Source: Octopus vulgaris
Lineage: Eukaryota
Direction of reading: 5' to 3'
DNA length: 64,000 nucleotides
Assembly: GCA_951406725.2 (NCBI GenBank)
Contig: OX597818.1
Location: 52,452,001 to 52,516,000 of the forward strand
In this document: positions 2,102 to 64,000 of the stretch, piece after piece
Layout of the letters: each line of letters begins with the position of its first letter
How positions within the stretch are numbered: position 1 is the stretch's first letter
Made by a program: the position numbers and the translations under genes
The notes under the pieces: model-generated
The model's input: only the letters and a program-made list of their open reading frames with translations
Told to the model about the DNA's origin: nothing
The model's database searches: none

Positions 2102-2166
<65 letters not shown>

Positions 2167-2170
<4 letters not shown>

Positions 2171-3316
2171 TAGAATAACTTAGAAAGGTTTTTGGCCAGT
2201 ATTGGCCCAGGCCATGTCTAACTTAATAGCACCACCTGGCGAAGTCTTTCAGTTCAGGATTTGGGCACCAAGGCCCATTCGAGCAGAGAGTTATTGTTTG
2301 CGGAGACATATCCGGGTGTGGATGGTTTGTCCGGTACTGTTTGAAGGAATTTGTCCAAAGACTTCTTGAATTTTGTGTGGTCAGTTTCTTTTTTGACGTG
2401 TCCTGGTGTAATGTTGAAGAGAGCGGGTCCAATTGAGGTGAAATAGTTGTGCCGTATTGTCGTTATGTGATGCGATTTAGATTTTTGTTGTGGACGGATG
2501 GCACGTGGTCCAAGCCTTGGATGCATTTTGAAGGTGATGCCAACATCATTCGGACAGTGCTGATGGAATATTTTCCACATCATACAGATAATGTAGCGTT
2601 CACGGCGTCGTTGGAGTGAATACAATTTCAGCTTCTCTAGTCTACCCCAGTAGTCAAGGTCTGACATGCCATCTATCTTTTTTGTGATTGACCTTTGGGG
2701 AGCTTCAATTCTCATAATATTTTGTTTTGTGTAGGGAGACCACAGTGGACAGCAGTATTCAAGGTGGGGTCGGGCAAAAGTGGAGAAGAGAAGGATAATA
2801 GCGTGGGAATCTCTCGACTGGAAGGTTCTGAGAATCCAGGAACACATTCTGCGGGCCATGTCAACTTTGCTGCTTATATGTGTAGCCCAGCTTATGTTGT
2901 TGTCCACTGTTACTCCCAGGTCTCTGATGTTGTTGGATGCCATGAGAATTTCTCCAGAAGGAAGAGAGTATGGGAGTTTCAGAGCGTCCTCCCTTCCAAA
3001 GTGGATCAGTTCGAATTTGTCTTCATTTAGCAACATGTTATTCTTTTCCGCCCATTGGACAACAGCCAGTAGGTCTGACTGAAGGTTTATTCGGTCATCC
3101 ACGCCATTGATGACCTTCTGGAGCTTGGAATCATCAGCGAAGGTTCTGATGTTGCTGTGTTTGATGGTGTCAGTAATATCATTTATGTAGATGATGAAGA
3201 GAAGTGGGCCCAACACAGTGCCTTGTGGGACACCACTGCTGACTTTGGCTGGGCTGGATTTGACTCCTTCGACTACAACATGTTGGGTTCTGTTAGAGAG
3301 GAAGCACTTGATCCAT

Positions 3317-3319
<3 letters not shown>
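2167..3319 (-). mobile_element. 5'-truncated CR1-group LINE (RT C-terminal half plus 3' UTR) inserted in (TA)n
   Basis: Open frame 3318-2254 with [41 protein letters not shown]; (TA)n on both sides. Confidence 0.95.
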
Positions 3320-3395
<76 letters not shown>

Positions 3396-3420
3396 CAACA
3401 ATATATATATATATATCAAC

Positions 3421-3451
<31 letters not shown>

Positions 3452-3470
3452 TATATACATATATATATAC

Positions 3471-3574
<104 letters not shown>

Positions 3575-3584
3575 TATATATATA

Positions 3585-4855
3585 CTAGCAGAGATACCCG
3601 GCGTTGCCCGGTTACATTCAATTGAAGAATTAAACTTTTCTGTTATATTTTCTGTAATGAACTGGAATATCTGTTTCGAATTTCATCAAAATTGCAGATA
3701 AGGTTTATTTCCATCTTTTCACACCCTAAAAAAATTGTAATCGTGCCACATGTATCCCATAATACTATTGATTTTTATGCGCATATTCCAAAATTCCAGT
3801 CTTATTGAAGCTGTTAAAAAGATTTTGCTCCTGAAAAATGAAGGTCATGGAGCTCTAAAATGTTTGGGGTGGGCATCTTAATGTCAACCAGAGAAGTTGA
3901 ATTGTTGAAAATCTTTTTAACTTGGGTCTTATATCTATTGTTTGAATTTCTTTGAAATAGGAAATATATGTTCACTGGGTTTGCAAAAGACAGCAAAGCT
4001 ACAAGAAACCAAAAGACGAATGATCGCAATAAGCAGTCAGTTATCCTACCCTAGTCGTTACCACTCCCAATGTAGGATTCCTCACCATCCAGGTGACAGG
4101 CACAGCCGTAAGATGCATTACGAATCTATAGCAATTAAAAGGGCGTGACCCAATCGAAATAAACATTAACAACTGTGTGACGTGAGGGCTAAGGAGAAAT
4201 GAAAGTTGGAGTTTGCAAATGACCACTGTTCTGATACGTAACTGGACAGAATAAATTAAAAATCTATAAATCCTTTGAATAACCAGTCACTCATCTGGGA
4301 AGGCCTTGAAATCAATGTTACCATGTGGGGACTATGTGTGACCCAGTGATAATAAAAAGACTGAAAGGAGATCTGCAATCAAATAACTTTACTCAACACA
4401 TTGCAACTGAATCAGTGGAGGCAAAGATGCCTCTCATTTACTTGACAATTTATGCAGCACTTTGCAGAAATCACAACGTAAGTGTATGTTAAAGTCAACT
4501 GTTACACTGTTGCATCATTGAATTAGAAATAATGCCCAACATTTATGGTCGGGTAACCCTACAGCTTCCAAGAACACAACTGTATTCGTTTTTGCTTAGA
4601 TAAAATGACAAAATTGTGGGTCATTCTAACTTTGTAAGAAGATGAAATTTTATAAATATTACTTCATTTGTGTCTAATATCTATGGTTAAAATTTCATCA
4701 ACAGCAAAAATATATGAATTGTCATGGGGGTTATGGCCCTTATGCATAGAATATAATTTCCAAATTTCATAAAGATCCATTCAGTACTTTTGACCTAGTT
4801 TTTGGATCATAAAAGAAGTGACTAAAATTTGGGAGTTAAGACTCCCATTAGGGTG

Positions 4856-5214: not shown

Positions 5215-7935
5215 CATATGTATTGTTGTTGGCATTCTTTTTGTCTCGGGAGACAATGGAGTTGCGCATAAAATAATCTAGTCCGGCTTTTACATTTCAT
5301 GTCCTAATACATCTCCTGCTGTGTAGTCCTACCCTGGACAAACCCACCCTCTGGAAGGTGCCGCAAATGTAGCGAAGACTTTGCCTGGCTGGTTGTAATG
5401 TCATAGGTTCTTGTTGACGTCTTTTCTTGTCTTTCCATTTCTCTTCTCTGTCTATGTCACTCCTCTGTGTTCCCTCTTTTACGGTACGTCGCCAATCTCC
5501 ACGGTTGCTGGCAACGGCTTCCCAGTTGGTAATATTGATGTTGCAGGCATTCATGTCCCTTTTGCAAACATCCTTGTATCGTAAGAACGGTCTTCCCACG
5601 GACCTAGTGCCCCTAGCAAGCTCTTCGTTGAGTATGTCCTTGGGGATTCTGTCATCTTCCATACGGCTAACATGCCCAAGCCATCTCATACGTCTTTGTG
5701 TGAGGAGTGCAAACATGCTTGGTATTCCTGCTTGCTTGAGGACATCTTTGTTGGGGACATGATTCTGCCATTTGATGCGAAGGATTTTCCGAAGGCAACG
5801 CAGGTGAAAGATGTTTAGGCGACGTATGGCGTCGTATGGCGTGTGTATGGCGTCCAAGTCTCACTTCCATACGGTAGAGTGTTAAGTACACATGCCTGGT
5901 AAATCTTCATTTTTGTGGTCTTGGTCAGCTTATTGTTGTCCCATGCCCGTTTGGAGAGTTGGGCCATCACAGCAGCTGCATTACCAATGCGTATATTGAG
6001 TTCAGCATCAAGGGATAGGTTGTAGGTGACGGTAGAGCCAAGATAGGTAAACTTCTCAACCTCCTGTAGTCTGTGGTCTCCAATATGTATGTTTGGGATG
6101 TCCGATGTAGCCTGACCCATGATGTTGGTCTTCTTGAGGCTGATAACTAAGCCAAAGTTGCTACATGCTTGCTCAAAACAGTTGATGAGCCTTTGTAGGG
6201 CTTCTTCTGTGTGTGATACCAGAGCGGCATCATCAGCAAATAGCATCTTGATCAGGACGCTTCTGATTTTGGTCTTGGCACTCAGACGCGAGAGATTGAA
6301 CAGTTTCCGATCACTTCTACTGTGCAGAAACACTCCATCATCTGATGTTTCAAAGGCATGTGACAGCGGCATCGAGAAGAAGATGCCAAATAATGTTGGA
6401 GAAAAGACACAACCTTGCTTTACCCCTTTTTTTATTTGGAAGGCGGCTGATGTTGAACCATTATGCTGTATGGTGCCTTGCATATTATTATGGAAAGATT
6501 TGATGATCCTCAGCAGCTTTGGTGGACATCCGATTTTTTGGAGCAGGATGAAGAGGCCTTTTCTACTTACCAAGTCAAAAGCCTTTGTCAGATCAATGAA
6601 GGCCATATATAATGGCATTTTCTGCTCTCTGGATTTCTCCTGAAGTTGGCGTATGGAGAATGTCATGTCAGTAGTTGATCTGCTTCTTCTAAAGCCACAC
6701 TGCGATTCCGGATAAATTCGAGAAGCAAGCAGTTGCAGCCTGGACAGGATAATGCGAGCAGAGGCCTTTCCAACAGTGCTTAGAAGAGATATTCCACGGT
6801 AATTGTTACAATCACCACGGTCACCTTTATTTTTGTAAAGCGTAATGATGTTAGCATCCCGCATATTCTGAGGGACTGTACCCACTTCCCAGCACTGACA
6901 CAGAAGCTCATGAATGTGCCGAAGCAGGATGGTGTTTTTGCCTGTTTTGATGATCTCTTAGGGGATGCCGTCTTTTCATGGAGCCTTGTTACTTGCTAGG
7001 GAGTCAACAGCCTTGGTGAGCTCTACTATAGATGGCGGACTGTCAAGTTCGCACATGACTGGCAAGATCTTGACACCCTCGATTGCAGCCTCAGCTACCG
7101 TGGTCTTTCGTGAGTAGAGATCCTGATAGTACTCCATCCATCTATCCATTTGCTTGCTTTGGTCCTTGATGAGATCCCCAGTAGTTGATTTCAGAGGGGC
7201 TGACTTGGTTGCGGATGGACCGAAGGCCTTCTTCAAACCGGCATACATCCCACGGGTATCGCCTCTGTCAGCAGCTGACTGGATACTCTGACAGATTTCT
7301 TGCCAATACCTATTTGCACAGCGTCTGGCAGCCAGTTGGGTTTTATTTCTTGCCTTTCTGAGTTCTTCAAGTGACTTTGTAGAAGAATCACTCTTCTATT
7401 GCATCAGAGCTGCACGCTTTGCTTCGATAACTGTTTCCAGCTCTGAGAGACCAGCACTGAACCAATCTGGGTTTTGCCTTTCTCTCATACCGAAAGTATC
7501 TATTGATGTGGTATACAAAGCTTCCCTGATATAACTCCACCTACTTTCAGCAGAGGAGGTTGGGCAGCTACTGAGGGCAACCTTGATAGAAACAGCAAAA
7601 CATTGTCGCAGTGTAGGGTCCGAGGTTCTGGCAGTGTTTATGCGTGGTCGGCCCAATTTCTTGGAGTGATGGACTTTTTTAGGCAGAATCCTCACCCTGC
7701 TTCTTATAAGTGAATGATGTATGTCACAATCAGCACTGGGGTATCTACGGGTCAGTTGAACAGAATTCAGACAGGATCTTCGTGTAATGATGAGATCCAG
7801 CTGATGCCAGTGCTGAGATATTGGATGTCTCCAAGATGCCTTGTGGGATGTCTTGTTGGCAAAGAATGTGTTGGTTATGGTATGTGCAAAATTCAAGTAG
7901 TCTCTGACCATTGTCATTCATGTTGCCAATACCAA
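5215..7935 (-). mobile_element. 5'-truncated, frameshifted RTE-clade LINE (end of APE domain, RT, C-terminus)
   Basis: ORF pieces 7396-7917, 6976-7248, 5815-6885, 5297-5857 with NYRGISLLS, FIDLTKAFD, GVKQGC, LFADD, FTYLGS, WLGHV; (AAC)n-like tail. Confidence 0.95.
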
Positions 7936-11762: not shown

Positions 11763-12011
11763 ATATAGAGTTACTTTCTCTTAGATGAACAGCTAAAGAG
11801 CTTTCATCCTTTCACGATCGATAAAATAAGTACCAGTTGAGTACTAGGGTCGATGTAATCGACTAAGTCTTGTGCCTATACTAAAAAAGATTATTATACC
11901 TGTGTTTGTTTCCATATTAAGGTTGAAAACCTTTTGAACCTGGTTTCGTACCCACTAAGTAAATTTTGATCCCACACTTATGTATAAGTAGTTCCTTAAA
12001 ATCCTTAAAAA

Positions 12012-12455
12012 TGTTTCATCCCGAAAGCTGCCGTCATGCTGGGGCACCACCGTTGACTGTGCTACTCTAGTATGTGAGTCCATCTCTGATACGTGGCACT
12101 TGGTCAACAAGGGAGTTCGACGCCGCTGCCCGCATCTGTTTCCTGCCGAGAGTAAGGTTCATCTGGAACCCCTGACAAGACGAGATCGAGTTTAGTTTTT
12201 AAAAAACCCACATCCACACCATGCAGATCTCTCAGGCATTTAGGAAGGATATTGAAGAGCTGTGGTCCCCTGAAATCCAAGCTGTTGCAGTATCTGGTCC
12301 TGTATTTTGATGGTGATGTTGGGATCTTTGGCACCATGCTGTGGCGCCCCATTCTGCTGTTGGGGTAACTTTCAATGCCAAAATTTGGGACAAGGCCCTC
12401 CAGGATCTTCCAGATGTATATCACTGCATAACTCTCCCGCCTTCGCTCCAGGGAG
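12012..12455 (-). mobile_element. Decayed CR1-group LINE 3' end
   Basis: IYIWKILEGLVPN...RGPQLFNILP...VPDEP is homologous to the C-terminus of the 2254 ORF; 3' motif GGTGGTGCCCCAGCATG..GAAAC. Confidence 0.8.
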
Positions 12456-12964
12456 AAGTGTTATTGAAATAATGATTGAAATTAATTTCTAAATACAAAT
12501 AAAAGTTCTTGAATATTCAGAAAATAGTAATGACGTAACAATCTGAAGATATATGCCGACGACCGCTCGGTTCAAAGTCTCTCTTGACCAGAAATGGCCT
12601 GAACTCTTTGCATGAACACCCTCCCTGTACATAACTCCATGTCCCCCTACATGGCCTTGCTTTTTGCTTTTTGAGCCCAAAAATTAACTTAACTTAACTT
12701 AAGTATTACAAAGACTATTACAAAAACAGATTTCCTACTTGGGAGGTAAAAAGGCAGAACATTTGTACAGGAAGAGACTAAAGTTACTTAACGTTCATGT
12801 TTTTCATTTGAGAATAGTTTTTGGTATAAGTTAAAGAAATAAATTTCTTGTGGACTTTTATTCTTTATGAAAACGTGCTTATGTAATCGGCTAACCGGGT
12901 TTTTTTTGCAATTTGCTTCAGTGTGTTTTTATCTGTACTAACAGTTAGGTAATAAATCTCATTT

Positions 12965-22272: not shown

Positions 22273-22764
22273 AGGCGGCAAGCTGGCAGAAGCGTTAGCA
22301 CGCCGGGCGAAATGCGTAGCCGTATTTCGTATGCCGTTACGTTCTGAGTTCAAATTCCGCCGAGGTCGACTTTACGTTTCAGTCATTTGACTGTGGCCAT
22401 GCTGGAGCACGGCATTTAGTCAAGCAAATCTACCCCAGGACTTCTTCTTTGTAAGCCTAGTACTTGTTCTATAGGTCTCTTTTGCCGAACCGCTAAGTTA
22501 CGGGGACGTAAACACACGAGCATCGGTTGTCAAGCGATGTTGGGGGGACAAACACAAACACACAAGCACACACACACACATATATACATATACATATATA
22601 CGATGGGCTTCTTTCAGTTTCCATCTACCAAATCCACTCACAAGGCTTTGGTCGGCCCGAGGCTATAGCAGAAGACACTTGCCCAAAGTGCCACGCAGTG
22701 GGACTGAACCCGGAGCCATGTGGCTGGTAAGCAAGCTACTTACCACACAGCCACTCCTACGCCT
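22273..22764. mobile_element. SINE A head (+, 22273-22375) abutting SINE B (-, 22376-22764)
   Basis: Abrupt switch at GTCGACTTTAC/GTTTCAGTCATTTG. Confidence 0.85.
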
Positions 22765-25223: not shown

Positions 25224-25524
25224 TAATACTTAAAAGTCTGTATGCAAGACTTAGCAAACCTAATTCTTTTATTCATTTATTCTTCTATTTGTTTCAGTCA
25301 TTTGACTGCTACCATGCTGGAGCACCGCCTCTAAGTAAGCATTTTCTTTTGATTTTCTAAGCTTGTGACTATTCAACTTATCTTTTATTCCCATACTTAT
25401 TTCCTTTCTTTCAGAATATGTCTCCTTCTGCTACTTCTTATCATAAGTGCCTGAACACCACTGATTCCTCTTGCTGTATCCGTGGCTGGTTCATCATTCC
25501 CAAATAAAAAGCAAACATCGACGC

Positions 25525-26676: not shown

Positions 26677-27093
26677 CTTACTCTTTTACTTGTTTCAGTC
26701 ATTTGACTGTAGCCATGCTGGAGCACCGCCTTTACTTGAGCAAATCGACCCCAGGACTTATTCTTTGTAAGCTTAGTACTTATGCTATCGGTCTCTTTTG
26801 CCGAACTGCTAAATTTCGGGGACGTAAACACACCAGCATCGGCCGTCAAGCGATGTTGAGGGAACAAACACAGACACACAAACATACATACACACATACA
26901 TACATATATATATACATATACATATATACGACGGGCTTCTTTCAGTTTCCGTCTACTAAATCTACTCACAAGGCTTTGGTCGGCCCGAGGCTATAGAAGA
27001 AGACACTTGCCCAAGGTACCACGCAGTGAGACTGAACCCGGAACCATGTGGTTCGTAAGCAAGCTACTTACCGCACAGCCACTCCCACTCCTG
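26677..27093 (-). mobile_element. SINE group B, full length
   Basis: tRNA-like head (TGGCTGTGCGGT..GGTTCAGTCTC), core, microsatellite and tail. Confidence 0.92.
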
Positions 27094-27439: not shown

Positions 27440-27604
27440 AGGCGCTGGAGTGGCTGTGTGGTAAGTAGCTTGCTTACGAACCATATGGTTCCAGGTTCAG
27501 TCCCACTGTGTGGCACTTTGGGCCAGTTTTTTCTACTATAGCTTCCGGCCGACCAATGCCTTGTGAGTGGATTTGGTAGATCGAAACTGAAAGAAGCCCG
27601 TCTT

Positions 27605-27662
<58 letters not shown>

Positions 27663-27900
27663 ATATATATGTATGTGTGTGTGTATATGTTTGCGTGTCT
27701 GTGTTTGTCCCCCCAACATCGCTTGACAACCGATGCTGGTCTCTTTACGTCCCCGTAACTTAGCGGTTCGGCAAAAGAGACCGATAGAATAAGTACTAGG
27801 CTTACAAAGAATAAGTCCTGGGGTCGATTAGCTCGACTAAAGGCGGTGCTCCAGCATGGCCACAGTCACATGACTGAAACAAGTAAAAGAGAGTAAAGAG
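27440..27900 (+). mobile_element. SINE group B, full length
   Basis: AGGCGCTGGAGTGGCTGTGTGGTAAG head to GAAACAAGTAAAAGA tail. Confidence 0.92.
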
Positions 27901-32238: not shown

Positions 32239-32320
32239 CCTTCTATAAAATAAATTAATTTACTCTGCTATGTATTGAGTACCTTGTTTACTGTGGTTAA
32301 CCCCGACTCAACCCGGGACC

Positions 32321-33155
<835 letters not shown>

Positions 33156-33156
33156 A

Positions 33157-33220
<64 letters not shown>

Positions 33221-33221
<1 letters not shown>

Positions 33222-33510
33222 CCAATTAAGGACTGAACACGAAAAGTGGACAGTCAACATGCTAGATATAGACGTCAAATCGCCATTCTCCACAAACTAT
33301 TATGTTCTCAGATCAAACTCAGCACTAAGTTTGATCTGAGAACATAATAGTTTGTGGAGAATGGCGATTTGACGTCTATATCTAGCATGTTGACTGTCCA
33401 CTTTTCGTGTTCAGTCCTTAATTGGTATATATAAATATTTTAAGCTTCGGATTCTTTTTTAATATGCTAGACCACTGGTCTTTATTGATAAATATCAATT
33501 TCTATCCTTA

Positions 33511-34330: not shown

Positions 34331-34439
34331 TATTGTTGTCATTGCCTTTGGTTACGGAGCCTAAGTGCACCTACAACAACTGAGATTACTTTTGTAAAAA
34401 CCCCTCCTTAGTCATCGTGTTTCCTTAGCCAAACCTCTC

Positions 34440-34917
<478 letters not shown>

Positions 34918-42463: not shown

Positions 42464-42514
<51 letters not shown>

Positions 42515-42517
<3 letters not shown>

Positions 42518-44016
42518 CATCACACTAGATAAAACCAATGAAATAAAAGAATTAGACCAAAGCCAAACTTACAAATACTTAGGAATCCATGAACTAGATA
42601 AGACACAACACACACAAATGAAAGAGAAAATAAAAAAAGAATATTATAGACGAGTTAGATCAATACTAAAAACAGAGCTCAATGCTAAAAACAAGATAAT
42701 AGGTATCAACACTTTAGCTGTCCCAGTTATAAGTTACAGCTACAATATCCTTAACTGGACACGAAATGAACTGTCCAAAATAGATAGGAAAACAAGAAAA
42801 ATACTGACAGGATCTAGGATGCATCACCCAAAATCTGACATAGAAAGACTATATATACAACGTATAGAAGGTGGTAGAGGCCTTATACAGCTGGAAAACT
42901 ACTATAAAATAACCACCATAGGACTGCAAAAATACCTACTTCAGAAGGAAGGAAAACTGATCCAGATAGCAGCAAAACACGAGCAAAACAAAAAACTGTT
43001 CTCAGTATTTAAGGAAGCTGACAAATACAAACAAGAAATCATACCACCTAATAAACACAAAGAAGAAGAAGAAGATGATGAAGAAACAACAAAAGCTATA
43101 AAACAAATGAAATCCAAACTAAAAATAGAACAGCAACGAGCCATGATAAAACGATGGCAAGAAAAGCCCCTTCATGGTAAATACTGCACTAAACTAAACG
43201 CAAAAGAAATAGACAAAGAAAAATCCCAGCAATGGTTGAGAATCTCAGGACTCAAAGCAGAAACAGAGGGATTTTTAATTGCAGCACAAGACCAAAGCCT
43301 CCCCACCAGAAATTACCAAAAACATGTAATGAAAAGAAATATTACAAGTAACTGTAGAATATGTGGAGATGGACAAGAAACAATAAATCATATTATCTCT
43401 AGCTGCCCAGTCCTGGCTAAGAAGGAATATATTCACAGACATGACAGAGTTGGAACCTACATACATTGGAAGCTATGCCAACATTATGGAATAACAACAG
43501 AAAAAAGATGGTATAGGCACACACCAGAAAAGGTCACAGAAAACGAGAAAGCAACCATACTCTGGGATATGCCGATACACACAGATAGAGAAATTAAGGC
43601 CAACAGACCAGATATAGTTGTCAGAGATCATGAAGAAAAAAAATGCTTTCTAATTGATGTATCAATACCGGCAGATGACAACGTGTCTCTAAAAGAAATG
43701 GAGAAACTCTCAAAATACAAAGACCTGGAAATAGAGGTAACTAGAATGTGGAACCTGAAAACAGAAACAATTCCTATCATAGTAGGTGCATTAGGCATGA
43801 TAAAAAAATATTCAGACAAATACATAACAAAAACACCAGGACTTACAAACACATATAACATACAGAAAATTGCACTACTAGGCACTGCACACATCCTACG
43901 CAGAACACTTTCCATACAATAACCATAAGAGCATCACAACAAATCACAGCACATACCCAAGGCACACAGAGCTGCGCTCGGTAGTGAAGTGAAAGCACGC
44001 TATAAAAATAAAACTA

Positions 44017-44019
<3 letters not shown>
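42515..44019 (+). mobile_element. 5'-truncated R4/Dong-clade non-LTR retrotransposon in (TAA)n
   Basis: YKYLG, GGRGL, CCHC knuckle CRIC..ETINHIISSC, RHD, RPDIV..IDV, KLSKYKDL; (TAA)n on both flanks. Confidence 0.95.
42618..43922 (+). CDS. Uninterrupted C-terminal 434 aa of Dong/R4-type protein (RT thumb, zinc knuckle, restriction-like endonuclease); truncated and probably not expressed
   Basis: ORF track plus the motifs above. Confidence 0.85.
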   Translation: MKEKIKKEYYRRVRSILKTELNAKNKIIGINTLAVPVISYSYNILNWTRNELSKIDRKTRKILTGSRMHHPKSDIERLYIQRIEGGRGLIQLENYYKITTIGLQKYLLQKEGKLIQIAAKHEQNKKLFSVFKEADKYKQEIIPPNKHKEEEEDDEETTKAIKQMKSKLKIEQQRAMIKRWQEKPLHGKYCTKLNAKEIDKEKSQQWLRISGLKAETEGFLIAAQDQSLPTRNYQKHVMKRNITSNCRICGDGQETINHIISSCPVLAKKEYIHRHDRVGTYIHWKLCQHYGITTEKRWYRHTPEKVTENEKATILWDMPIHTDREIKANRPDIVVRDHEEKKCFLIDVSIPADDNVSLKEMEKLSKYKDLEIEVTRMWNLKTETIPIIVGALGMIKKYSDKYITKTPGLTNTYNIQKIALLGTAHILRRTLSIQ

Positions 44020-44054
<35 letters not shown>

Positions 44055-44059
44055 TAATA

Positions 44060-44131
<72 letters not shown>

Positions 44132-44672: not shown

Positions 44673-44829
44673 TGAATAAATTATCTTTGAATTCAATGCT
44701 CATAAGGTAACACCAATCAGGCAGGAGAGGCACAAATATCTCGTTTCATGACTGCATTCGTTCTATTACTCTTTTAATGGTTTCAGTCATTGGACTGCGG
44801 CGTTGTTGGAAATCCGCCTTCAAAATATA

Positions 44830-44880
<51 letters not shown>

Positions 44881-45050
44881 TAATAATAATAATAAATTGA
44901 ATAAATTATCTTTGAATTCAATGCTCATAAGGTAACGCCAGCCAGGCAAGAGAGGCACAAGTATGTTGTTTCATGACTGCATTCGTTCTATTACTCTTGT
45001 AATGGTTTCAGTCATTGGACTGCGGCGTTGTTGGAAATTCGCCTTCAAAA
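44638..45050. repeat. Tandem duplication of (TAA)n plus ~157-bp unique segment
   Basis: 44669-44825 matches 44893-45050. Confidence 0.9.
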
Positions 45051-45515
45051 CAGGTTTTATTATTATGTCGACCCGAGTATATATTTTTAGTTCAGTATTT
45101 ATTTTATCGACCTCTGCTTGACGAACCACCAAGTAGCAAAGCATAAAGGAACAGAACATAAACAACACCGATTTTCACATTGGTGTAAGCATAAATATCT
45201 CATCACATACACAGACGTACAGACACACATACACACAAACACATACACACACACATACACTCACACACACACACACCTTCATGCATATACACACACAAAA
45301 AGCTTCTGTACTGCTTCTGCCAAATAACTTCCATTCTCATTTTGTTAATAAACAAGAGATTATAATAAAATATACCTATCCGATAATGCTGTGCAGCTAA
45401 ATCGAACCCCAAAACCACAAGTCTGCAAAGCCATATTCTTAACCATCAATCTATGCCTTCAATTATTTCGTTCTAAATGTTACACCTTGTTTTATGCAAT
45501 ATGATCCCTTTCTTA

Positions 45516-61935: not shown

Positions 61936-62405
61936 GATATATTTATATATATATATAATATATCATATATATATATATACGTTTCTATATGTGCGTCATT
62001 TGATCTCATCGTATCTAAAAACTGACATAAACTTGACATAAACTACATCGAGAACCAGTTGAGATAACCATTTAAATAACAAACAAAGTTTTATATTCTC
62101 TTTGTGTTTGATTTCATGATAGAATTGTATAATCTAAAATATCAAATATATCACAATACTTCTGGGCATTGACACAATTACATGACACAGTGTTATTGTG
62201 TCTGTCGATATCAGTATCGACGTATAAATCTTCTAAACGCTAGGCATGAATTCAGACAAACACGAGCTGGTAGAGTGCTAAACAGGGGTATAATAAGCGT
62301 ATATAAAACAGGGAGCCACACGGCCCATGAAGGTATATATATGATTTTTGAGGGCTCAGGCAACAAAATAGTAAATTGGGGGATCTATAAGAGTATTTTA
62401 AGGGC

Positions 62406-62601
62406 TTTACTCTTTTACTTGTTTCAGTCATTTGACTGCAGCCATGCTGGAGCACCGCCTTTAGTCGAGCAAATCGACTCCAGGACTTATTCTTTGTAAG
62501 CCTAGTGCTTATTCTATCGGTTCTCTTTTGCCGAACCGCTAAGTTACGGGGACGTAAACACATCAGCATCGGTTGTCAAGCGATGTTGGGGGACAAACGG
62601 A

Positions 62602-62673
<72 letters not shown>

Positions 62674-62831
62674 GCTTCTTTCAGTTTCCAGCTAAAAAAT
62701 CCACGTACAAGGCTTTAGTCGGCCCGAGGCTATAGTAGAAGACACTTGCTGAAAGTGCCACACAGTGGGACTGAACCCGGAGCAATGTGGTTGGTTAGCA
62801 AGCTACTTACCACACAGCCACTCCTGCGCCT
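62406..62831 (-). mobile_element. SINE group B, full length
   Basis: Head AGGCGCAGGAGTGGCTGTGTGG at 62831 to tail at 62406. Confidence 0.93.
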
Positions 62832-62881
62832 AGAAATATGGAACACTTCACGAATTTGCGTGTCATCCTTGCGCAGAGGCC

Positions 62882-62914
<33 letters not shown>

Positions 62915-62928
62915 AATATGTACCGCCG
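62832..62928 (-). pseudogene. U6: U6 snRNA copy, lacking ~10 nt at the 5' end, fused to a SINE
   Basis: Minus strand CGGCGGTACATATTCTAAAATTGGAACGATACAGAGAAGATTAGCATGGCCTCTGCGCAAGGATGACACGCAAATTCGTGAAGTGTTCCATATTT; ACAGAGA box and AGC triad present. Confidence 0.95.
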
Positions 62929-63168
62929 TTGCTGCTGAAAATTTTGCATTAAATGTATGTATTGATATGTATTGCAAGAAACATCTAGGTTTCTTTCTCT
63001 AGCATTTTACATAGTTGAACTTACACAAATCAATGCGTGAAAACATTAATGAATAACACTCTATAAAACTAGCTTTAAAACGTCGCCGACTTCTCGACCA
63101 CTCGACTTCCTACGTCACAGTATTTGTAATGACTAACACATACCACACATCACATTTTAGGGGTGTTC

Positions 63169-63233
<65 letters not shown>

Positions 63234-63280: not shown

Positions 63281-63327
63281 GATAGTGACTTCGAAGTTTC
63301 GACCAGCTAAGCTATCGTCGGACTGCG
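63281..63327 (-). ncRNA. Degenerate type I hammerhead ribozyme
   Basis: GCAGT-CCGACGA-TAGC-tta-GCTG-gtc-GAAAC-TTCGAA-GTC-ACT; core CUGA changed to CCGA; palindromic stem III; next to (TAA)n. Confidence 0.5.
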
Positions 63328-64000
63328 ATACATTGACACTTCGAAGTCAGTGTCAACAATAGTCTTGTTTAAGAATAATAAAATTATACTCTACGAAACT
63401 ATCGAGTAAGCCATCAGATTAATGCAAAATTGTTTTTTATTATAACTGAACATAAAAAAAACAAACATTTATGTGTGTGTGTGTGTGTGTGTGTGTTGTG
63501 CTTTTGAATACAGCGCATTCGTAAAAGTTATTATCTCAAGTCGAATGCCGTATAAAATTTGCCTTTCGTGGTGCAAAGCCTTTATGTATGATACACAGAT
63601 AGCTATAGGATTGTTTTGTAGCACACGGAATGAAAGGAACGAACTCTGCTTATACATCAGTATAACAATCGGACTAGTTGCTATAGAAATGCGTCATATA
63701 TGCAAATCACTTTATCCGTTTTAATGAAGACCTTAAATAATAGTGTTGATAAATACAATACTACTGTGGACAGTTTATGATGTTATGCTTGATACTAATT
63801 CAGCTGAAATTTAAAATGCTCCACCTGATCCATGTATTACATCCACGGGGAGATTGTGCTAAAAGAAATCTAGTCTTTTACGACTGTCTAGCTTATTTAA
63901 TTCATTTTGATTAATTTACACTTGTTTTTTGGGCTTAAATCGATAGACTCATTTTGTAGATCATAACATCAAAAACAAGCACAGCGAATGCATCAGTAAA

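What the first reader, a model, noticed from the sequence alone, without database searches (positions are those of the whole stretch)
62406..62928. U6 snRNA-SINE chimera
Seen: on the minus strand a nearly complete U6 ending CCATATTTCT is joined with no spacer to nucleotide 1 of a full-length group B SINE. The U6 lacks the 5' strand of its 5' stem-loop and has three internal substitutions. Established: U6-LINE chimeric retrocopies are known in vertebrates, formed by template switching or RNA ligation at the U6 3' end. Inference: an analogous U6-SINE retro-chimera in an invertebrate, mobilised by a CR1-group LINE. Alternatively the SINE inserted at the 3' end of a U6 pseudogene. I see no clear TSD.
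Basis: partly seen in the sequence, partly recalled or inferred. Interest (0 to 1): 0.72.

Follow-up and report, generated by a model that had tools for sequence, protein, structure and literature searches.

The report
U6 copy fused to whole SINE
A shortened copy of the U6 splicing RNA is joined, with no gap, to the first base of a complete short jumping element (SINE), likely pasted in as one piece when a reverse transcriptase hopped from one RNA to the other; this kind of accident is already described in platypus and lizard and is likely new only for its host, probably an octopus.

Summary
U6 (Rfam, 101 bits), lacking its 5' stem strand and any TATA-like box at the expected place, abuts base 1 of a full-length tRNA-type SINE whose start is fixed by other copies. 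Random abutment would be about 1 in 4,600-32,000 per U6 copy. No target-site duplication exceeds chance under either model, but 4 of 6 other copies lack one too. The SINE tail resembles the 3' end of a LINE remnant in the window (1 of 2000 shuffles); the CR1 label is recalled. Best reading (0.58): one retrotransposition in which the LINE enzyme jumped from the SINE's 5' end to the U6 3' end. RtcB ligation is less likely, as it failed on 5'-triphosphate RNA (PMC6789731). Independent insertion stays open (0.2): orthologous sites, other U6 copies and junction reads were not examined. U6-SINE chimeras with 5'-truncated U6 and tiny or no duplications are published for platypus, Anolis and opossum (PMC4476161), and the scan noted a similar U6-retroelement chimera on other DNA (e1-7509689). 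New member of a known kind; only the invertebrate host is likely new.

The parts
62832..62928 (-). U6 snRNA retrocopy, 5'-truncated in the loop of the 5' stem-loop, 3' end complete, five-position U-tract with one non-U
   Evidence: Rfam RF00026, 101.3 bits, E 3.6e-25 (the model alignment extends to 62935 only through non-standard pairs and gaps)
62672..62831 (-). SINE 5' part: base 1 at 62831; tRNA-type head with A-box-like motif (SINE nt 12-22) and B-box-like motif (SINE nt 55-64)
   Evidence: alignment with window copies; motif scan and head BLAST
62604..62671 (-). Central (GT)n microsatellite of the SINE; other copies carry a mixed (TA)/(TG) tract here
   Evidence: sequence, alignment
62460..62603 (-). 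SINE 3' body
   Evidence: alignment with window copies
62406..62459 (-). LINE-like tail ending in an A-rich tandem repeat; no separate poly(A) or LINE remnant follows
   Evidence: the downstream flank has only one 25-base window hit besides itself
62929..63100 (-). Upstream flank: unique in the window, no TATA-like box at the expected distance (only one, 139 nt upstream)
11985..12460 (-). LINE 3' remnant (ORF2 C-terminus plus 3' UTR) whose tail resembles the SINE tail; a relative of the likely partner LINE, not shown to be the partner
   Evidence: tail score 34, 1 of 2000 shuffles, alignment; ORF 34% identical, E 1e-13, to the RVT_1-bearing ORF at 2257-3333
22371..22764 (-). Comparison copy of the same SINE with intact 5' end and no U6 upstream
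26678..27092 (-). Comparison copy of the same SINE with intact 5' end and no U6 upstream
27440..27900 (+). Comparison copy of the same SINE with intact 5' end and no U6 upstream

Best explanation
A 5'-truncated U6 copy directly abuts base 1 of a complete SINE, likely as one dead retro-insertion in which a LINE reverse transcriptase copied the whole SINE RNA and then likely jumped from its 5' end onto the 3' end of a U6 snRNA. Steps: (1) inferred: a tail-recognising LINE bound the SINE RNA by its LINE-like tail and primed at a genomic nick; (2) shown by the anatomy: the copy covers the SINE from tail to base 1; (3) inferred: at the end of the template the enzyme jumped end-to-end to the U-tract of U6; the non-U in the tract is either a later substitution or untemplated bases added at the jump; (4) shown: the U6 part stops in the loop of the 5' stem-loop; inferred: synthesis ended at that hairpin; (5) shown: no duplication above chance; inferred: this LINE type leaves tiny or no duplications. 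The U6 part has no upstream promoter and no 5' stem, so it is very likely not a working snRNA gene; the SINE's internal promoter would start at base 1 and leave U6 behind, so the fusion is likely a one-off.
For: Exact junction at SINE base 1, fixed by 3 other copies. Of 11 head hits in the window 5 start within the first 3 nt (4 besides this one); with 4 intact starts in 64 kb a same-strand abutment is 1 in 32,000 (exact) or 1 in 4,571 (within 3 nt either way) per U6 copy under random insertion. The U6 has a complete 3' end yet no tail of its own beyond the SINE (7 A in the first 20 downstream bases; no paralogue of that flank in the window), so the SINE supplies the only evident vehicle. Ages are compatible: SINE 23 of 344 sites (6.7%) from the majority of other window copies; an assumed 3-6 changes in 97 U6 bases do not differ from that (Fisher P 0.23-1.0). 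Precedent has the same anatomy: platypus U6 chimeras with L2 or the Mon-1 SINE, almost all U6-L2 cases 5'-truncated, duplications of only 1-9 bp in 72.5% of 40; six U6-AnolisSINE2 cases (PMC4476161). A jump is preferred to ligation because RtcB gave 0 of 26 full-length products with a 5'-triphosphate acceptor (PMC6789731) and a primary Pol III transcript starts with a triphosphate (established knowledge).
Against: No TSD encloses U6 plus SINE: the best match is 3 nt, reached or exceeded by 728 of 1000 random flanks, so the one direct hallmark of a single insertion is missing. One locus only; the chance figure is post hoc and ignores target preference and the unknown number of U6 copies in the genome. 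The U6 substitution count is assumed, not measured against this species' gene. The LINE remnant's tail differs from the SINE tail in its hairpin and terminal repeat, so the true partner was not found. End-to-end jumping by this enzyme is inferred from R2 work seen only as a reference title.
Confidence: 0.58

Rival explanations
1. Two independent events: a tail-less U6 retrocopy was there first and the SINE later inserted exactly at its 3' U-tract (or U6 cDNA landed at the 5' end of a resident SINE).
For: No TSD around the pair. The SINE is very dense (23 other matches in 64 kb), so coincidences occur somewhere in a large genome; T-rich tracts can be preferred nick sites (general knowledge).
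Against: No duplication of the U6 end after the SINE either (no match of 3 nt or more). Needs a 1 in 4,600-32,000 coincidence per U6 copy and a separate route for a promoter-less, 5'-truncated, 3'-complete U6 without a tail, a class that PMC4476161 did not detect in a genome with tail-recognising LINEs.
Confidence: 0.2
2. One insertion, but of an RNA joined beforehand: RtcB ligated the cyclic-phosphate end of U6 to a SINE RNA bearing a 5'-OH at base 1, and the LINE copied the joined RNA.
For: The U-tract has five positions, the length of mature human U6, and human chimeras carry about 4-6 T at the junction (PMC6789731). RtcB joins U6 to unrelated RNAs such as GFP in extracts.
Against: Ligation needed a 5'-OH; 0 of 26 full-length products with a triphosphate end, and the products found were on 5'-truncated partners. 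Here the partner is intact to base 1, so an extra dephosphorylation step has to be assumed.
Confidence: 0.14
3. The locus is one copy of a small U6-headed SINE subfamily that spread as a unit, like crocodilian SINEU.
For: The O. vulgaris annotation lists one SINE family labelled 'U' (369,490 bp; 19 recent insertions) and one 'U-L1' family without saying which snRNA or body (PMC13282606). The non-U in the tract shortens the T run, which would weaken a Pol III terminator (inference).
Against: None of the other 4 intact-start copies in the window has U6 upstream. snRNA genes have no internal promoter (PMC4494074) and the SINE's A and B boxes would start transcription downstream of U6. That the window is octopus, and that the 'U' family is related, are both untested.
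Confidence: 0.05
4. Assembly or DNA-repair artefact joining two repeats.
For: Both parts are repeated sequences in a microsatellite-rich region; the junction itself was not checked in reads.
Against: The join falls on both natural RNA ends to the base. 7 of 24 listed runs hold half or more of the sampled words of 62000-63200, more than the 44% taken up by U6 and SINE, so the flanks exist in DNA under three organism labels, in three studies besides the possible source; this does not test the junction.
Confidence: 0.03

Closest known systems
U6-SINE and U6-L2/RTE chimeric retrocopies of platypus (Mon-1, L2), Anolis (AnolisSINE2, L2, RTEX-2) and opossum (RTESINE1); Doucet et al. 2015, PMC4476161 (section 10 read whole, other passages, supplement search)
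   Same: U6 3' end joined in the same orientation to a SINE that depends on a tail-recognising LINE; U6 5'-truncated; duplication tiny or absent.
   Different: Host is an invertebrate, probably an octopus (that survey covered vertebrates only); the SINE partner is complete to base 1 (the text and supplement hits seen do not say whether the vertebrate SINE partners are); no duplication shown here.
Human U6/LINE-1 chimeric pseudogenes; Moldovan et al. 2019, PMC6789731 (passages); Law and Burns 2025, PMC11838501 (passages)
   Same: U6 ending in a T-tract of about five fused head to tail to a retroelement.
   Different: There U6 is full length, the partner is 5'-truncated L1, 6-19 bp duplications and an L1 cleavage motif are present, and RtcB ligation explains the join; here U6 is truncated, the partner is intact and no duplication is seen.
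SINEU (U1/U2-headed SINEs of crocodilians); Kojima 2015, PMC4494074 (passages)
   Same: snRNA sequence added to the 5' end of a SINE, attributed there to template switching.
   Different: SINEU are multi-copy families from master copies with U1/U2 heads; here one U6 copy and no evidence of spread.

Membership tests
U6-retroelement chimeric retrocopy (group IV of Doucet et al. 2015) | U6 sequence with complete 3' end joined directly, same orientation, to a LINE or SINE | tested here: met
U6-retroelement chimeric retrocopy (group IV of Doucet et al. 2015) | One target-site duplication enclosing both parts | tested here: inconclusive
   Best match 3 nt, chance level (728 of 1000 random); 4 of 6 other copies of the SINE also lack one; 27.5% of the 40 platypus chimeras had none. 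A 1-3 bp duplication cannot be told from chance.
U6-retroelement chimeric retrocopy (group IV of Doucet et al. 2015) | Both parts arrive together (orthologous empty site lacks both) | not tested
   No genome is held and no orthologous contig was examined; left open
U6-retroelement chimeric retrocopy (group IV of Doucet et al. 2015) | U6 part lacks its external promoter (retrocopy, not gene) | tested here: met
   5' stem strand absent; only TATA-like motif 139 nt upstream; the PSE was not tested, as no motif for this lineage was at hand
tRNA-derived SINE mobilised by a tail-recognising LINE | Internal A and B boxes in the head | tested here: met
   A-box-like at SINE nt 12, B-box-like at nt 55 by simple recalled motifs; ARAGORN finds no tRNA in the window, so the parent tRNA is not identified
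tRNA-derived SINE mobilised by a tail-recognising LINE | 3' tail shared with a LINE | tested here: met
   1 of 6 LINE 3' ends tested matches (score 34, 1 of 2000 shuffles; the other five 333-1210 of 2000); similar, not identical
CR1 clade (partner LINE) | Placement of the RT in the CR1 clade by phylogeny or named homologues | tested here: inconclusive
   RVT_1 confirmed for the related ORF 2257-3333; the best 120 of 1705 homologues carry no clade names; the CR1 label rests on recalled C-terminal motifs
RtcB-ligated U6/L1-type chimera | Partner RNA cut internally (5'-truncated, 5'-OH end) | tested here: not met
   Partner starts at base 1; requirement from PMC6789731
SINEU-type snRNA-headed SINE family | Several copies sharing the snRNA head and junction | not testable with these tools
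   Only 64 kb at hand; 0 of the 4 other intact-start copies has a U6 head; no genome

The most novel reading that the evidence does not exclude
The locus is a copy, or the founder, of a U6-headed SINE subfamily in an invertebrate: U6 captured on base 1 of a tRNA SINE, with its terminator tract broken, spreading as one unit, and possibly the unexplained 'U' SINE family listed for Octopus vulgaris. That would be a U6 counterpart of crocodilian SINEU outside vertebrates.
Probability: 0.05. Interest if true: 0.6.

Novelty: new member of a known kind. Interest (0 to 1): 0.24.

Why it matters
If the single-event reading holds, U6 capture by tail-recognising LINEs extends from amniotes to an invertebrate, which fits the published view that it is an ancient property of LINE enzymes. 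The join at base 1 of an intact Pol III transcript is a small useful data point in the debate on template jumping versus RtcB ligation, because ligation should not work on a triphosphate end; a genome-wide table of U6 junction positions in this lineage could test the two routes. It also shows the raw step by which SINEs gain new heads. As a single dead copy it has no evident function.

Tried and rejected
No whole genome is held, so other U6 copies and their neighbours could not be tabulated. The state of the orthologous site and junction-spanning reads remain unexamined. A 30-base SINE tail pattern found 0 matches in metagenome contigs. Flanks have no usable paralogue in the window, so no empty site could be rebuilt from a repeat. 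Rfam at E up to 0.1 on 1-62800 showed only microsatellite-driven miRNA matches among the best 150 of 189 (39 not shown). The homologue search of the RT ORF gave no clade or organism name. A real U6 gene with a SINE inserted behind it was rejected: the 5' stem strand is missing and no TATA-like box lies near -30. The LINE 3' ends at 2254, 33059, 5297, 43922 and 26420 were rejected as tail donors. Literature searches for an invertebrate U6-SINE case listed none by title or abstract start; the library lacks most subscription papers, so absence from print is not shown. A search for a mollusc U6 promoter motif gave nothing usable. The octopus SINE paper of Ohshima and Okada 1994 was seen only as a reference, so the SINE family name is not assigned. 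The Doucet supplements gave no per-locus table for platypus or lizard in a term search (1 of 3 files not searched). Earlier notes of the scan: nothing for this genome or for the SINE 3' half.

Full report
Observation. Rfam finds a single match above gathering score in the window, U6 at 62832-62935 on the minus strand (101.3 bits, gathering 44, E 3.6e-25). The 3' end is complete and closes with a five-position U-tract holding one non-U. The next base, 62831, is base 1 of a SINE: copies at 22764(-), 27092(-) and 27440(+) begin with the same first three bases and have unrelated sequence upstream. The SINE runs to 62406 with a head carrying A-box-like and B-box-like motifs at SINE nt 12 and 55 (motifs recalled), a central microsatellite, a body and an A-rich repeated tail.

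Host. Not shown by any search. I recall the SINE as an octopus repeat. The window's LINE remnants (RT domains by Pfam in 2 of 5 ORFs scanned, a zf-RVT hit below its curated cut-off in a third) look by recalled motifs like CR1, RTE and Dong/R4 types, which are the three largest LINE groups listed for Octopus vulgaris (PMC13282606 supplement); this is circumstantial. Of 24 listed runs, 7 hold half or more of the sampled words of 62000-63200, under three coded organism labels and four studies, one of which may be the source and two of which share a year. U6 and SINE take up 44% of that stretch, so the flanks exist in other samples; the junction was not tested by this.

More than chance? Eleven head hits lie in the window, 5 of them starting within the first 3 nt, 4 besides this one. 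With 4 intact starts per 64 kb, a same-strand abutment is 1 in 32,000 (exact) or 1 in 4,571 (within 3 nt either way) per U6 copy under random insertion. The figure is post hoc and ignores target preference and the unknown number of U6 copies.

One insertion or two? No duplication encloses U6 plus SINE (best 3 nt; 728 of 1000 random flanks do as well) and none encloses the SINE alone (no match of 3 nt or more). This is weak either way: of 6 other copies scanned, with boundaries set by eye, 2 gave candidates (7 nt perfect; 8 nt with one mismatch; such scores occur in 16 and 56 of 1000 random trials) and 4 gave nothing above chance. The U6 has no promoter-like context (the only TATA-like motif is 139 nt upstream) and no tail of its own after the SINE, so under the two-event model it needs a separate, tail-less route. 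The SINE differs from the majority of the other window copies at 23 of 344 sites (6.7%; six other copies 3.7-7.2%); 3 to 6 assumed changes in 97 U6 bases are compatible with the same age (Fisher P 0.23-1.0). If the host is an octopus, 6.7% is close to the SINE and LINE expansion at distance 0.065, about 18 million years, reported in PMC13282606 (passages); this is inference.

Which enzyme? Of 6 LINE 3' ends tested, only the remnant at 11985-12460(-) matches the SINE tail (score 34; 1 of 2000 shuffles of 2-base blocks; the others 333-1210 of 2000). The match covers the first 27 nt and a later hexamer, while hairpin and terminal repeat differ, so it is a relative of the partner. Its ORF has no Pfam hit but is 34% identical (E 1e-13) to the C-terminus of the RT ORF at 2257-3333 (RVT_1, E 2.4e-11). 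The CR1 label is recalled; the best 120 of 1705 homologues gave no clade name. The same tail motif occurs at 15 places in the window, some with a different hairpin and ending, as expected where a tail-recognising LINE group serves more than one short element.

Mechanism. Most likely the LINE enzyme primed on the SINE tail, copied the SINE to its first base, jumped to the 3' end of U6 and stopped at the U6 5' hairpin. Shown: order, orientation, both ends, missing 5' stem strand. Inferred: priming, jump and cause of truncation. RtcB ligation explains human U6/L1 chimeras but needed a 5'-OH: 0 of 26 full-length products with a triphosphate acceptor, and the joins found were to 5'-truncated RNA (PMC6789731, passages). 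An intact Pol III transcript carries a triphosphate (established knowledge), so ligation needs an extra step here; it is not excluded, and the five-position tract fits mature U6 under both routes. End-to-end jumping is known for the R2 enzyme (Bibillo and Eickbush 2004, seen only as a reference title; otherwise recalled).

Comparison with what is known. Doucet et al. 2015 (PMC4476161; section 10 read whole; passages; supplement term search) report U6 chimeras with L2 and the Mon-1 SINE in platypus (almost all U6-L2 cases 5'-truncated; duplications of 1-9 bp in 72.5% of 40), six with AnolisSINE2 in the lizard, one 5'-truncated U6 with RTESINE1 and no duplication in opossum, and one with a CR1-like element in turkey. 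This locus works like those and meets the features that could be tested, with the duplication inconclusive and the empty site untested. snRNA-Alu chimeras and U1/U2-headed SINE families are described in PMC4494074 (passages); non-coding RNA-SINE chimeras in a fungus in PMC2104539 (passages); a 7SL head added to a tRNA SINE in hagfish in PMC7245038 (passages); a human catalogue in PMC11838501 (passages). PMC4758252 and PMC3531059 (passages) did not identify the SINE. Searches listed no invertebrate U6-SINE paper; the library is incomplete. The scan noted a U6 fragment fused to a retroelement tail in another genome (e1-7509689) and similar snRNA-LINE fusions; these notes were not checked and came after my reading was set.

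Most novel reading. The O. vulgaris annotation lists one SINE family labelled 'U' (369,490 bp, 19 recent insertions) and one 'U-L1' family with no description. A U6-headed subfamily cannot be excluded from one window, and the broken T-tract would weaken a terminator; but none of the 4 other intact copies has the head, snRNA genes lack internal promoters, and the SINE's own promoter would drop U6. Probability 0.05.

Verdict. Real feature; most likely a one-off U6-SINE chimeric retrocopy made by a template jump (0.58; ligation 0.14; independent insertion 0.2; family 0.05; artefact 0.03). New member of a known kind; interest 0.24. The decisive tests (orthologous site, genome-wide U6 neighbours, junction reads) remain open.

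Noticed in passing
window 11985-12460 (-): LINE 3' remnant whose tail resembles the SINE tail; the same tail motif occurs at 15 places in the window, with at least two different hairpin and ending types (e.g. 33996+, 49897-, 60700+), suggesting several short elements served by one LINE group.
   Followed up: partly
window 2160-3642 (-) and 32301-33160 (+): Two related RT-type LINE 3' remnants with nearly the same 3' UTR, different from the SINE tail; each runs into a long (TA)n tract at its 5' side.
   Followed up: partly
window 5297-7917 (-): Frameshifted LINE with an RT domain (RVT_1, E 3.6e-34), RTE-like by recalled motifs.
   Followed up: no
window 42465-44060 (+): LINE 3' part with an open frame of 485 codons, a weak zf-RVT hit and an (AAT)n tail; Dong/R4-like by recall, looks young.
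   Followed up: no
window 34437-34916 (-): Slightly 5'-truncated SINE copy with a 7-nt match at both ends that overlaps the SINE's own start, a candidate duplication or microhomology.
   Followed up: partly
window 22310-22371 (-): The tail of one SINE copy is cut short and runs straight into a member of another repeat family.
   Followed up: no
window 25268-25333 (-) and 44766-45060 (-): Tail-only copies of the SINE/LINE tail, about 60 bases; the second region holds two diverged tails in tandem around an (ATT)n tract.
   Followed up: no
window 33277-33370: Long near-perfect palindrome within a larger inverted repeat, MITE-like.
   Followed up: no
window 63285-63352: Short inverted repeat upstream of the U6 copy, next to an (AAT)n tract; no paralogue in the window.
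   Followed up: no
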